DNA from: Escherichia coli
GTDB taxonomy: Bacteria; Pseudomonadota; Gammaproteobacteria; Enterobacterales; Enterobacteriaceae
Length of the DNA: 64,000 nucleotides
NCBI RefSeq assembly: GCF_030013205.1
Contig: NZ_CP122648.1
Direction: 5' to 3' (one strand)
How positions within the stretch are numbered: position 1 is the first letter of the stretch; each line of letters starts with the position of its first letter. Shown piece after piece: positions 18,001 to 21,000 of this stretch. A program made the position numbers.

Positions 18001-21000
18001 GTGCCAGTGAGGAAAGACCGAACTGCACGCTTTTCGCCGTAACATCGATATCTTCTTCGCGGTTATAACGAATCGCCCGACGCAACAGCGCCTGCGTTTC
18101 ATCGTCGTCTGCCGGAACATCATGATGGCGGTACAGCCATTCGCTTACCGCTTCACGCGTTGGCGCGCAAAGCATTGAAGGCAGCAGCGTGCTGTCGTTT
18201 TCCATTTTCAGTAATTGCGGCTTACCGTCGCGCATGACCGCCACTGAACAGTTTGCTGTACCGTAATCAAAACCAATAAACACGAAATAATCCCCATGCC
18301 GGTGAAGAAGGGGCGTGACTTTAGCGAAATGTTGCCGTCGCGACAACCGGAATATGAAAGCAAAGCGTAGCGTCTGAATAACGTTTATGCTGAAAGCGGA
18401 TTAACAAGGAGATGCGATGTATACCTTGAACTGGCAGCCGCCGTATGACTGGTCGTGGATGTTGGGATTTCTCGCCGCCCGTGCGGTGAACGGTGTGGAA
18501 ACGGTCGCTGACGATTATTATGCCCGTAGTCTGGCGGTGGGCGAATATCGTGGCGTGGTGACTGCTATTCCGGATATAGCCAGCCATACTCTGCACATAA
18601 ATTTAAGAGCAGGTTTAGAACCCGTTGCCGCTGAGTGTCTGGCGAAAATGAGCCGCCTGTTTGATCTGCAATGTAACCCGCAGATTGTTAACGGTGCGTT
18701 GGGCAAGTTAGGCGCGGCACGGCCCGGATTGCGTTTACCCGGTTGTGTTGATGCTTTTGAGCAGGGCGTGCGGGCGATTTTAGGCCAGCTGGTGAGCGTG
18801 GCGATGGCGGCAAAATTGACCGCCAGAGTGGCACAGCTTTATGGCGAACGGCTGGATGATTTTCCGGATTATGTCTGCTTCCCCACGCCTCAGCGGCTAG
18901 CTGCAGCCGACCCGCAGGCATTAAAAGCGTTAGGTATGCCGTTGAAACGGGCAGAGGCACTGATTCATCTGGCAAATGCGGCGCTGGAGGGCACCTTACC
19001 AATGACAATACCGAGCGATGTGGAGCAGGCGATGAAAACGCTGCAAACTTTTCCGGGTATCGGGCGCTGGACGGCGAATTATTTCGCCTTACGTGGCTGG
19101 CAGGCGAAAGATGTTTTCCTGCCGGATGATTATCTGATTAAACAGCGATTTCCGGGAATGACACCGGCACAAATCCGCCGTTATGCCGAACGCTGGAAGC
19201 CCTGGCGTTCTTATGCGCTGTTGCATATCTGGTATACGGAAGGCTGGCAACCAGACGGAACGGACGAATTGTAGGCCTGATACGCCGCATCAGGCGATGG
19301 GGAAGCACGCCTTAGTTAATCGCGAAATAACTGCTATTCACCAGCAAATCCAGCGGTTGGGCATCGGCAATCACATCGCCATAAATCAGATCGACGCCGA
19401 TGCCAGAAAGCGTATCCATCACCAGGGGTAAAACTACTGGCCCGGCGATGGTCTTCATCCCGAGCCGCTGAGCGTGCCCCTGAATGATCGTAATCAGCAT
19501 CTCATCCATCAAATTTCCCTGCACGTTGGCGCATAACTCACCATCAAGTAGCAGGTAATCTGCCATATTCGCTTTCAGCGAGTTGAAGATTTGCAGATCG
19601 CGGCCCACCTGACTGAATACGATCCGACATCCCGCCAGCCGCAGTTTTTGCACGCTTTCTGCGTGATCTAAAATCGCGTCTGCCGGAATAATCAGATGTA
19701 ATAACCGTGGTGGTAGAGGGCTATTTTCCAGCTGCTCAATTAGTTCATTCACCAGCGTGGCGCTACTCAAACCGGCAACGGAAAGGGGGAGGGCGATACT
19801 TAAGCCTTTACTGGCAATCGCTTTTGCGGCCTGCTGGAAAAAATCGTGGAATACCCGTCGGTCAAGAGCATGGCTAAGTGCCGGATCGCTGAAACTACGA
19901 CGAAATGTTTGTTCATCAATAATCTCGCCTTCGCAACTCCAGAGCTTAAGTGAAATCAGCCACAAATTACGCGCTTCCGGGATCCGCGGCGAAGCGACAC
20001 CGTGGGCGATCATCATCAACTGATTCTCTTTAATCATCCGCCACTGTTCATCAAGCGATATCGCCGCCCGTTCGCTATGTGCGGCAGCTTGCTGCGGTTC
20101 GTAAACCGTCACCCGGCCCCGTCCACCATTTTTGGAGGCATAACAGGCGATATCAGCCTGTGACATCACTTCAGCCGCCTGATGATTGTTGTCATCAATT
20201 AAGGTAATCCCGGCACTGGCACCTACCCGATGTACACGTCCTTCCCAGATAAAGTGATAGTCATTCACGGCGCTGATAATGCGTGTAGCGATAAAACGCG
20301 CACTTTCGACATTACAATCTGGCAGCAGCAGACCAAATTCATCGCCACCGAGTCGCGCCAGCACGTCGCTGGAGCGCAGCATACTCAGCATCAACGACGC
20401 CAGTTCGCGCAGCAAAGCGTCGCCAGCGGCGTGCCCGGCGCTGTCATTCACCGCTTTAAAGCGATCAAGATCGATAAACACCAGTGCATGTCGCTGATGT
20501 GTACTGTTTACCGTTTGCAGCAGGATGCGTAGTTGCTTCTCAAAACTGGCGCGATTGGCGAGATGCGTCAGTGCATCATGGGAGGCGCTGTAGCTCAGCT
20601 GGCGCAGCATTTTGCGTGATTCGGTGACGTCCTGAATCACCAGAACCGAGCCTATATTGCTGCCGTCCAGAGTACTTAACGGCGTAATACTGTAATGCAC
20701 GTCGTAGCTGCCGCCGCTCCGACAGTGCAACACCACATCTTGTTCAATCGCGGAACGTGAGGTGTCGGCACTGTAAATGTTCTCCATTAATGGTCCGTTG
20801 TCGCCAAAAGTAATATGCAACACCGTCAGGAGCGGAACACCTAATGCTTCTTCCTGCGTCCAGCCGCTCATCTTCTCCGCCACCGGATTCATAAAGGTAA
20901 TTTTCATCGCCATATCAATACAGACCACGGCTTCGCCGATGGAATCCAGCGTAATGTGCAGGCGCTCTTTTTCCTGAAACAATGCCTCGTTAAGCTGTTT

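What the first reader, a model, noticed from the sequence alone, without database searches (positions are those of the whole stretch)
19271..19312. REP palindromes at convergent gene ends, one overlapping the alkA stop codon
REP-type palindromes occupy at least four inter-operon gaps (19271-19296, 26154-26193, 32446-32483, 42833-42882) and a REP-like hairpin follows baeR. The alkA stop codon lies inside one of them, so the element probably acts as the 3' stabiliser or terminator for both convergent transcripts (alkA and dgcE).
Basis: partly seen in the sequence, partly recalled or inferred. Interest (0 to 1): 0.2.

Follow-up and report, generated by a model that had tools for sequence, protein, structure and literature searches.

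The report
Decayed REP repeat ending the alkA gene
The palindrome after alkA is a real but truncated copy of the common E. coli REP repeat; it is left over from a deletion found in about 40% of E. coli genomes, now supplies the alkA stop codon, and is an ordinary strain polymorphism rather than a demonstrated two-way terminator.

Summary
The window is E. coli. REP-consensus elements are present at all the coordinates given, far above chance.

The 19271-19296 element is GTAG plus a 7-bp stem. The alkA stop TAG (19272-19274) is bases 2-4 of the REP GTAG tail.

This element is a remnant. K-12 and other Escherichia species have a 108-nt alkA/dgcE gap with two inverted REPs and a 282-aa AlkA. The window allele lacks 51 nt (the last two alkA codons, the stop codon and one REP). 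It also lacks 11 nt (the bulge, upper stem and loop of the other REP). This gives a 37-nt gap and a 285-aa AlkA ending GTDEL. 2161 of 5426 complete E. coli genomes share the allele.

The remnant hairpin is weak: -10 to -14 kcal/mol against about -21 for intact REPs, and not better than shuffled sequence in context. It has no U-tract.

Published K-12 data show approximate Rho-dependent termination of dgcE-sense RNA near the REP pair. In the asmA/yegH gap, 3' ends map at a different hairpin, not at the REP.

Two of the four "inter-operon" gaps lie inside the colanic-acid operon.

Verdict: a known kind of element and an ordinary polymorphism. The functional claim is only weakly supported.

The parts
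19271..19295 (.). Truncated z2-type REP remnant. It comprises GTAG (19271-19274), the 5' arm GCCTGAT (19275-19281), a 7-nt loop ACGCCGC (19282-19288) and the 3' arm ATCAGGC (19289-19295).
   Evidence: Sequence. Alignment to the full K-12 REP and to other REPs. Consensus hits. Hairpin energies.
19272..19274 (+). alkA stop codon TAG, formed by bases 2-4 of the REP GTAG tail.
   Evidence: ORF list and PGAP annotation of the identical strain.
18417..19274 (+). alkA, encoding a 285-aa DNA-3-methyladenine glycosylase 2. It is identical in alignment to solved K-12 AlkA through residue 280, then ends GTDEL instead of EA.
19256..19257 (.). Junction of the 51-nt deletion relative to the K-12/Escherichia long allele. 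The deletion removed the last two alkA codons, the TGA stop and the alkA-proximal Y-type REP.
   Evidence: Pairwise and multi-strain alignments.
19282..19283 (.). Junction of the 11-nt deletion that removed the AA/GC bulge, the upper stem arm and the loop of the z2 REP.
19312..22629 (-). dgcE (diguanylate cyclase), convergent with alkA. Its stop is at 19312-19314, 16 nt from the remnant stem.
26157..26193 (.). Intact z2-type REP in the convergent asmA/yegH gap, identical in K-12. It lies 20 nt after the asmA stop.
32449..32482 (.). Intact Y-type REP between wzc and wcaA. These genes are co-directional and lie inside the colanic-acid operon.
42833..42882 (.). Half REP (42833-42845), 1 nt after the cpsB stop, plus a degenerate Y-type REP (42853-42882) between cpsB and cpsG (co-directional). 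The Y-type copy is absent in K-12.
1323..1356 (.). Degenerate Y-type REP without a GTAG tail, 10-11 nt downstream of the baeR stop (1366-1368, minus strand), in the co-directional baeR-yegP gap.

Best explanation
The 19271-19295 palindrome is the decayed remnant of a two-REP cluster (BIME-like, Y + z2) that sits between alkA and dgcE in the genus Escherichia.

In a large E. coli sublineage two deletions shortened the gap from 108 to 37 nt.
- A 51-nt deletion removed the last two alkA codons, its stop codon and the Y REP.
- An 11-nt deletion removed the top of the z2 hairpin.

Translation of alkA now runs through 15 nt of former spacer and stops at the TAG inside the REP GTAG tail, giving AlkA 285 aa ending GTDEL.

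What remains is a 7-bp stem without the bulge that the REP transposase needs and without a U-tract.

The most likely mode of operation, which is inferred, is as follows.
- The remnant is a largely passive relic.
- It is not an intrinsic terminator.
- On alkA mRNA it is melted by each terminating ribosome and adds little protection.
- On dgcE mRNA, where it lies 16 nt past the stop and folds better, it may act as a weak barrier to 3'-5' exonucleases.
- Transcription on both strands is ended further on by Rho, in the untranslated antisense of the opposing gene.
For: Shown.
- The element is orthologous to a full z2 REP, with homologous flanks, in K-12, O157, JJ1886 and others.
- The long allele with a 282-aa AlkA is present in E. 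albertii, E. whittamii and Escherichia sp. E1V33. By parsimony the short allele is therefore derived.
- Citrobacter and Enterobacter have no REP here; their alkA and dgcE 3' ends overlap.
- The short-allele junction is present in 2161 of 5426 complete E. coli genomes, always under an alkA annotation.
- AlkA aligns to the solved K-12 protein over residues 1-280.
- Hairpin energies are -10.3 and -13.6 kcal/mol, against -20.9 to -22.0 for the intact REPs at 26157 and 32449.
- In context the fold has z of -0.6 and -1.1, against about -3 for intact REPs.
- Stem probability is 0.00-0.34 in alkA sense and 0.58-0.89 in dgcE sense.
- No terminator-like site lies in the gap.
- In K-12 a Rho termination region is called at 2146686 (+). 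3'-end reads in 800-nt windows are 43 upstream and 8 downstream untreated, and 56 upstream and 71 downstream with bicyclomycin (PMC7815308 supp. 2).
- REP determinants for TnpA_REP are GTAG plus an unpaired bulge (PMC8266576). The bulge is deleted here.
Against: - No transcript 3'-end, half-life or protein data exist for any strain with the short allele.
- The Rho call in K-12 is approximate (800-nt windows) and concerns the long allele.
- alkA and dgcE are poorly expressed under the published conditions, so the absence of a Term-seq 3' end is weak evidence.
- Secondary-structure probabilities depend on context. The intact wzc/wcaA REP ranged from 0.07 to 0.98.
- A -13.6 kcal/mol hairpin could still impede exonucleases.
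- Polarity rests on parsimony over a handful of outgroup genomes.
Confidence: 0.65

Rival explanations
1. One reading: the REP hairpin is a shared, bidirectional 3' stabiliser or terminator that defines the 3' ends of both the alkA and dgcE transcripts.
For: - REPs protect upstream mRNA from 3'-5' exonucleases, and many Rho-dependent transcripts end at such stem-loops (PMC6061677).
- The palindrome can fold on both strands.
- In dgcE-sense RNA the stem probability is 0.58-0.89.
- The K-12 Rho-region call lies at the edge of the REP pair.
Against: - There is no U-tract and no terminator-like site.
- The remnant has about half the stability of intact REPs and is not distinguishable from shuffles in context.
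- Stem probability in alkA sense is 0.00-0.34.
- The stem abuts the alkA stop, so terminating ribosomes must unwind it (inference).
- 40% of E. coli have lost one and a half of the two REPs, which argues that they are dispensable.
- At the neighbouring asmA/yegH gap the mapped 3' ends are not at the REP.
Confidence: 0.15
2. The REP acts on translation. A REP within 15 nt of a stop codon stalls the terminating ribosome and lowers the yield of the upstream protein (Liang, Rudd and Deutscher 2015 mechanism). Here that would attenuate AlkA at 0-nt spacing.
For: [quoted passage not shown]
- The stem starts 0 nt after the alkA stop.
- In K-12 the Y REP starts 8 nt after the alkA stop.
- baeR (10-11 nt) and cpsB (half REP at 1 nt) also fall inside the window.
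Against: - The remnant stem is only 7 bp and -10.3 kcal/mol in alkA sense, with a low predicted occupancy. It is probably too weak to stall a ribosome.
- The primary paper could not be read here.
- There are no data for alkA.
Confidence: 0.15
3. It is a chance palindrome or a coding-driven palindrome, not a REP.
For: - A similar palindrome, GCCTGATGCGCCGCATCAAGC, occurs inside udk at 23380-23400 with no REP context.
Against: - GTAG plus the lower stem are identical to REP consensus.
- The flanks align base-for-base with a full z2 REP in other strains.
- The tail motif expectation is 0.04 per window.
Confidence: 0.01
4. The element has a DNA-level role as a BIME, for example as a gyrase or IHF binding site or in nucleoid organisation.
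For: - The ancestral locus is a Y + z2 pair, the composition typical of BIMEs (PMC8266576).
Against: - The window allele has lost the Y partner and the top of z2, so it is no longer a BIME.
- Nothing here tests protein binding.
Confidence: 0.04

Closest known systems
E. coli REP elements (group 2 REP, types y/z1/z2; substrates of the TnpA_REP/RAYT transposase)
   Same: - A 5' GTAG tetranucleotide and the lower stem GCCTGAT/ATCAGGC.
- Membership of a multi-copy consensus family.
- A position at gene 3' ends.
- Orthology to a full z2 REP in K-12.
   Different: - Only 25 nt long.
- The AA/GC bulge, upper stem and loop are deleted.
- It overlaps a coding sequence by 3 nt.
- It is probably no longer a TnpA_REP substrate.
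BIME (bacterial interspersed mosaic element: paired inverted Y and Z REPs)
   Same: The ancestral alkA/dgcE gap in K-12, E. albertii and others carries a Y + z2 inverted pair. K-12 also has a 4-REP BIME in the wzxC-wcaK gap.
   Different: The window allele keeps only part of one REP. The wzxC-wcaK BIME is absent from the window altogether.
REP mRNA 3' stabilisers and stem-loops that define the steady-state 3' ends of Rho-terminated transcripts (Newbury 1987; Dar and Sorek 2018)
   Same: A G+C-rich hairpin without a U-tract, downstream of a stop codon. In K-12 there is Rho-dependent readthrough in this gap.
   Different: The remnant is about half as stable as intact REPs. No 3' end has been mapped to it. 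On the alkA side it lies under the terminating ribosome.
REP translational attenuators (REP within 15 nt of a stop codon; Liang, Rudd and Deutscher 2015)
   Same: The spacing criterion is met: 0 nt for alkA, and also met for baeR.
   Different: The hairpin is truncated and weak. The effect is untested for alkA.

Membership tests
E. coli REP (group 2) | Conserved GTAG tetranucleotide 5' of the palindrome | tested here: met
   GTAG is at 19271-19274. It is also intact at 26157 and 32449, and degenerate at 1323-1356 and 42853-42882.
E. coli REP (group 2) | Imperfect palindrome able to form a stem-loop | tested here: met
   A 7-bp stem spans 19275-19281 and 19289-19295, at -10.3 and -13.6 kcal/mol. 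It is not better than shuffles in context.
E. coli REP (group 2) | Conserved AA/GC mismatch (bulge) in the stem, required for TnpA_REP activity (PMC8266576) | tested here: not met
   The bulge and upper stem are removed by the 11-nt deletion. They are present in the REPs at 26157 and 32449.
E. coli REP (group 2) | Length class: y 35 nt, z1 29 nt or z2 37 nt | tested here: not met
   The 19271 element is 25 nt from GTAG to the end of the stem. The others are 34-37 nt.
E. coli REP (group 2) | Shared consensus, with multiple copies per genome | tested here: met
   The head motif has 9 hits against 0.61 expected, and the tail motif 3 against 0.04. Alignment A3.
E. coli REP (group 2) | Extragenic location (REPs seldom overlap coding regions; PMC12306157) | tested here: not met
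   The GTAG tail overlaps the alkA stop codon by 3 nt. The stem itself is extragenic.
E. coli REP (group 2) | Cleavage or recombination by TnpA_REP | not testable with these tools
   This needs an in vitro cleavage assay. Loss of the bulge predicts inactivity.
BIME | Two or more REPs in alternating orientation (Y with Z) | tested here: not met
   Only one partial REP remains in the window. K-12 has the pair.
Intrinsic (Rho-independent) terminator | G+C-rich hairpin followed by a U-tract | tested here: not met
   The flanks are GAUGGGG (alkA sense) and CUACAAUUCG (dgcE sense). No site is found in 19275-19311.
REP translational attenuator (Liang 2015) | REP within 15 nt of the upstream stop codon | tested here: met
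   alkA 0 nt, baeR 10-11 nt, cpsB half REP 1 nt. Not met for dgcE (16 nt), asmA (20-24 nt) or wzc (24-28 nt).
REP translational attenuator (Liang 2015) | Ribosome stalling or reduced protein yield caused by the REP | not testable with these tools
   This requires reporter or SsrA-tagging experiments.

The most novel reading that the evidence does not exclude
The short allele could be a selected regulatory variant rather than neutral decay. Placing the alkA stop codon inside a REP at 0-nt spacing, and removing most of the structured spacer, would couple AlkA termination to hairpin unwinding (stalling or tmRNA tagging). It would also let the convergent alkA and dgcE transcripts run into each other. 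About 40% of E. coli would then regulate an alkylation-repair glycosylase and a biofilm c-di-GMP cyclase differently from K-12.
Probability: 0.07. Interest if true: 0.35.

Novelty: already known. Interest (0 to 1): 0.15.

Why it matters
It matters little beyond annotation.

- REP clusters are deletion-prone and differ between strains at several gaps in this window.
- Such a deletion can rewrite the C-terminus of a protein and donate a new stop codon from the REP GTAG tail.
- Conclusions about 3'-end structure drawn from K-12 do not transfer automatically to the 40% of E. coli that carry the short alkA/dgcE gap.
- If the remnant still had a function, it would define a minimal REP stabiliser. 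Nothing here suggests that it does.

Tried and rejected
- **REP annotation in K-12:** the RefSeq copy of K-12 lists no repeat features in these gaps, so EcoCyc REP names could not be checked.
- **Rfam:** no family matches the alkA/dgcE gap, even at E-value 10.
- **Primary REP-translation papers:** the Liang 2015 paper and its follow-up review are not held. I relied on the summary in PMC12306157.
- **Other 3'-end datasets:**
  - Dar and Sorek supplements are not held.
  - The TRS paper supplements have no entry for alkA or dgcE.
  - Herzel 2022 supplements are not held.
  - RepRanger supplements have no gene list.
- **Adams 2021 tables:**
  - No Term-seq 3' end appears in K-12 2145900-2146799.
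  - No Term-seq 3' end or Rho termination region appears at the K-12 positions searched for the baeR, wzc, cpsB or asmA REPs.
- **An ancestral 285-aa AlkA:** tblastn matched residues 1-285 in Citrobacter and Enterobacter, which suggested that the 285-aa form might be ancestral. I rejected this. Those proteins are 288-290 aa, end in ...PSVDGEIAGVE or similar, and are encoded antisense to the dgcE 3' end with no REP. All other Escherichia species have the 282-aa long allele.
- **Excision by TnpA_REP:** I considered this as the cause of the 51-nt deletion. It is not supported. The deleted Y REP has CCAG instead of GTAG in every long allele seen, and the junction shows only 1 nt of ambiguity.
- **Intermediate alleles:** no allele carrying only one of the two deletions appeared among the 30 spread-sampled genomes.

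Full report
**Source and gene map**

- The window is Escherichia coli. Positions from about 800 to about 56,000 are identical to strain K_EC180 (NZ_CP062203.1).
- The PGAP annotation of that strain gives the following genes:

| Gene | Coordinates | Strand |
|---|---|---|
| yegP | 854-1186 | - |
| baeR | 1366-2088 | - |
| alkA | 18417-19274 | + |
| dgcE | 19312-22629 | - |
| asmA | 24283-26136 | + |
| yegH | 26429-28012 | - |
| wzc | 30262-32424 | + |
| wcaA | 32517-33356 | + |
| cpsB | 41395-42831 | + |
| cpsG | 42960-44330 | + |

**Checking the observation**

- All the listed sites carry REP consensus.
- The REP head GCCKGATGCGRCG (up to 1 mismatch) occurs 9 times against 0.61 expected.
- The REP tail CTTATCMGGCCTAC occurs 3 times against 0.04 expected.
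- An alignment of the elements with two K-12 REPs shows the family consensus.
- The REPs at 26157-26193 (z2 type) and 32449-32482 (Y type) are intact.
  - Each has GTAG, a 7-bp lower stem, an AA/GC bulge and an upper stem.
  - Their energies are -22.0 and -20.9 kcal/mol, with z-scores near -3 in context.
- 42833-42845 is a half REP, 1 nt after the cpsB stop. It is followed by a degenerate Y REP at 42853-42882.
- 1323-1356 is a degenerate Y REP, 10-11 nt after the baeR stop.
- The alkA TAG (19272-19274) is bases 2-4 of the GTAG of the 19271 element, and the stem begins at 19275.
  - Only alkA/dgcE and asmA/yegH are convergent.
  - wzc-wcaA and cpsB-cpsG are co-directional gaps inside the colanic-acid cluster, downstream of its JUMPstart element at 28454-28492.
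  - baeR-yegP is also co-directional.

**What the 19271 element is**

- K-12 has a 108-nt alkA/dgcE gap with two inverted REPs. A Y-type copy starts 8 nt after the alkA TGA, and a z2-type copy lies next to dgcE. K-12 AlkA is 282 aa.
- The window lacks two stretches relative to K-12.
  - 51 nt are missing: the last two alkA codons, the stop codon and the whole Y REP.
  - 11 nt are missing inside the z2 REP: the bulge, one arm of the upper stem and the loop.
- alkA therefore reads through 15 nt of former spacer and stops at the GTAG-derived TAG. The protein ends ...QPDGTDEL instead of ...QPDEA.
- It aligns with the solved K-12 AlkA over residues 1-280.

**Distribution and polarity of the allele**

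- A 57-nt probe across the junction finds the short allele in 2161 of 5426 complete E. coli genomes.
  - 764 genomes are the window haplotype.
  - 1394 genomes are the E24377A-type haplotype. It shares both deletions but has a different right-hand flank, which suggests recombination within the gap.
- The long allele with a 282-aa AlkA is found in E. albertii, E. whittamii and Escherichia sp. E1V33. The short allele is therefore the derived state by parsimony.
- Citrobacter and Enterobacter have no REP here; their alkA and dgcE 3' ends overlap.
- Other lineages show independent small indels in the same REPs: O157/O145, JJ1886, E69, SCPM-O-B-8794 and E. albertii.
- The locus is therefore a decaying BIME. 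The same instability is seen elsewhere in the window.
  - K-12 has a 4-REP BIME in the wzxC-wcaK gap that the window lacks.
  - The window has a Y REP in the cpsB-cpsG gap that K-12 lacks.

**Does it work as a stabiliser or terminator?**

- The remnant folds at -10.3 kcal/mol in alkA sense and -13.6 in dgcE sense.
- In 50-64-nt context the folding energy is not better than shuffles, with z of -0.61 and -1.07. In alkA sense the minimum-energy structure is not even the REP hairpin.
- Ensemble stem probability is 0.00-0.34 in alkA sense and 0.58-0.89 in dgcE sense, against 0.99-1.00 for the asmA/yegH REP. Such values depend on context: the intact wzc/wcaA REP ranged from 0.07 to 0.98.
- There is no U-tract and no terminator-like site in the gap.
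- No Rfam family matches the gap.
- The stem starts at the base after the stop codon. A ribosome terminating at UAG must therefore hold the 5' arm in its mRNA channel. This is an inference from footprint geometry.

**Published 3'-end data (K-12, long allele)**

- Adams et al. 2021 (PMC7815308) list no dominant Term-seq 3' end in the gap.
- They do list a Rho termination region at 2146686 (+), on the dgcE-sense strand. That position is 3 nt past the alkA-proximal REP, which is the REP deleted in the window.
  - 3'-end reads in 800-nt windows are 43 upstream and 8 downstream untreated, and 56 upstream and 71 downstream with bicyclomycin.
  - The Rho score is 6.8 and p is 7.7e-7.
  - The method gives only approximate positions.
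- In the asmA/yegH gap the dominant 3' ends map at K-12 2139566 (-) and 2139607 (+), which correspond to window 26329 and 26288. They flank a non-REP hairpin at about 26294-26324. No end is listed at the REP.
- Dar and Sorek (PMC6061677) report that Rho-terminated transcripts are trimmed back to stable stem-loops, and that only 24% of these are REPs.

**Mechanism adopted**

- The element is a relic of REP decay that now supplies the alkA stop codon.
- At most it acts as a weak exonuclease barrier for dgcE mRNA.
- Termination on both strands is probably Rho-dependent, in the antisense of the opposing ORF.
- The identity and history of the element are shown. The functional statements are inferred.
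- A Liang-type translational effect on alkA is possible, because a REP within 15 nt of a stop qualifies (summarised in PMC12306157). The weak stem makes it unlikely.

**Comparison with known families**

- The element keeps the GTAG, the lower stem and the family consensus of E. coli group 2 REPs.
- It fails on the bulge, the length class and a strictly extragenic location (PMC8266576).
- It is no longer a BIME and it is not an intrinsic terminator.

**Novelty and score**

- The kind of element and its presence at these loci are already known.
- I did not find the allele described in the papers I read. It is an ordinary polymorphism.
- Interest is 0.15.

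Noticed in passing
window 26294-26324: A non-REP hairpin (GCCAGGGTGG...CCACCCTGGC, no U-tract) lies in the asmA/yegH gap. [quoted passage not shown] The + strand end is an abundant 'orphan' end of about 32,000-42,000 reads, which could mark a stable 3' fragment or an sRNA.
   Followed up: partly
window 23380-23400: A palindrome, GCCTGATGCGCCGCATCAAGC, lies inside the udk coding sequence (encoding ..CLMRRIKR..). It matches the REP head on both strands but has no GTAG tail. It is probably a coding coincidence.
   Followed up: no
window 47260-47330: The wzxC-wcaK gap is 71 nt here. K-12 carries about 204 extra nt at this position, consisting of a four-REP BIME (two Y-z2 pairs).
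   Followed up: partly
window 42829-42959: The cpsB stop TAA is followed after 1 nt by a half REP. A Y-type REP (42853-42882) is present here but absent in K-12 (24-nt indel). An Rfam algC RNA motif (42906-42955, 78 bits) sits just upstream of cpsG.
   Followed up: partly
window 12612-13417: There are three Sib antitoxin RNA / Ibs toxin modules here, against two (sibA/ibsA and sibB/ibsB) in K-12.
   Followed up: no
window 14220-16918: yegL-pphC-yegI are contiguous. The yegJ gene that lies between yegI and pphC in K-12 is absent.
   Followed up: no
L063 1830-1960 (Escherichia sp. MOD1-EC7003): A deletion of about 560 nt fuses alkA codon ~121 to the spacer before the z2 REP through a GCGATT microhomology. 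The truncated ORF reads through the REP and stops at the TAG in its loop.
   Followed up: partly
window 28454-28492 and 52559-52597: JUMPstart elements lie upstream of wza and of rfbB, marking the starts of the colanic-acid and O-antigen operons.
   Followed up: no
window 1-800 and 56000-64000: The window departs from its otherwise identical match K_EC180 at both ends. About 600 mismatches fall in the first 800 nt, and the sequences are offset or divergent after about 56 kb, in the O-antigen cluster.
   Followed up: no
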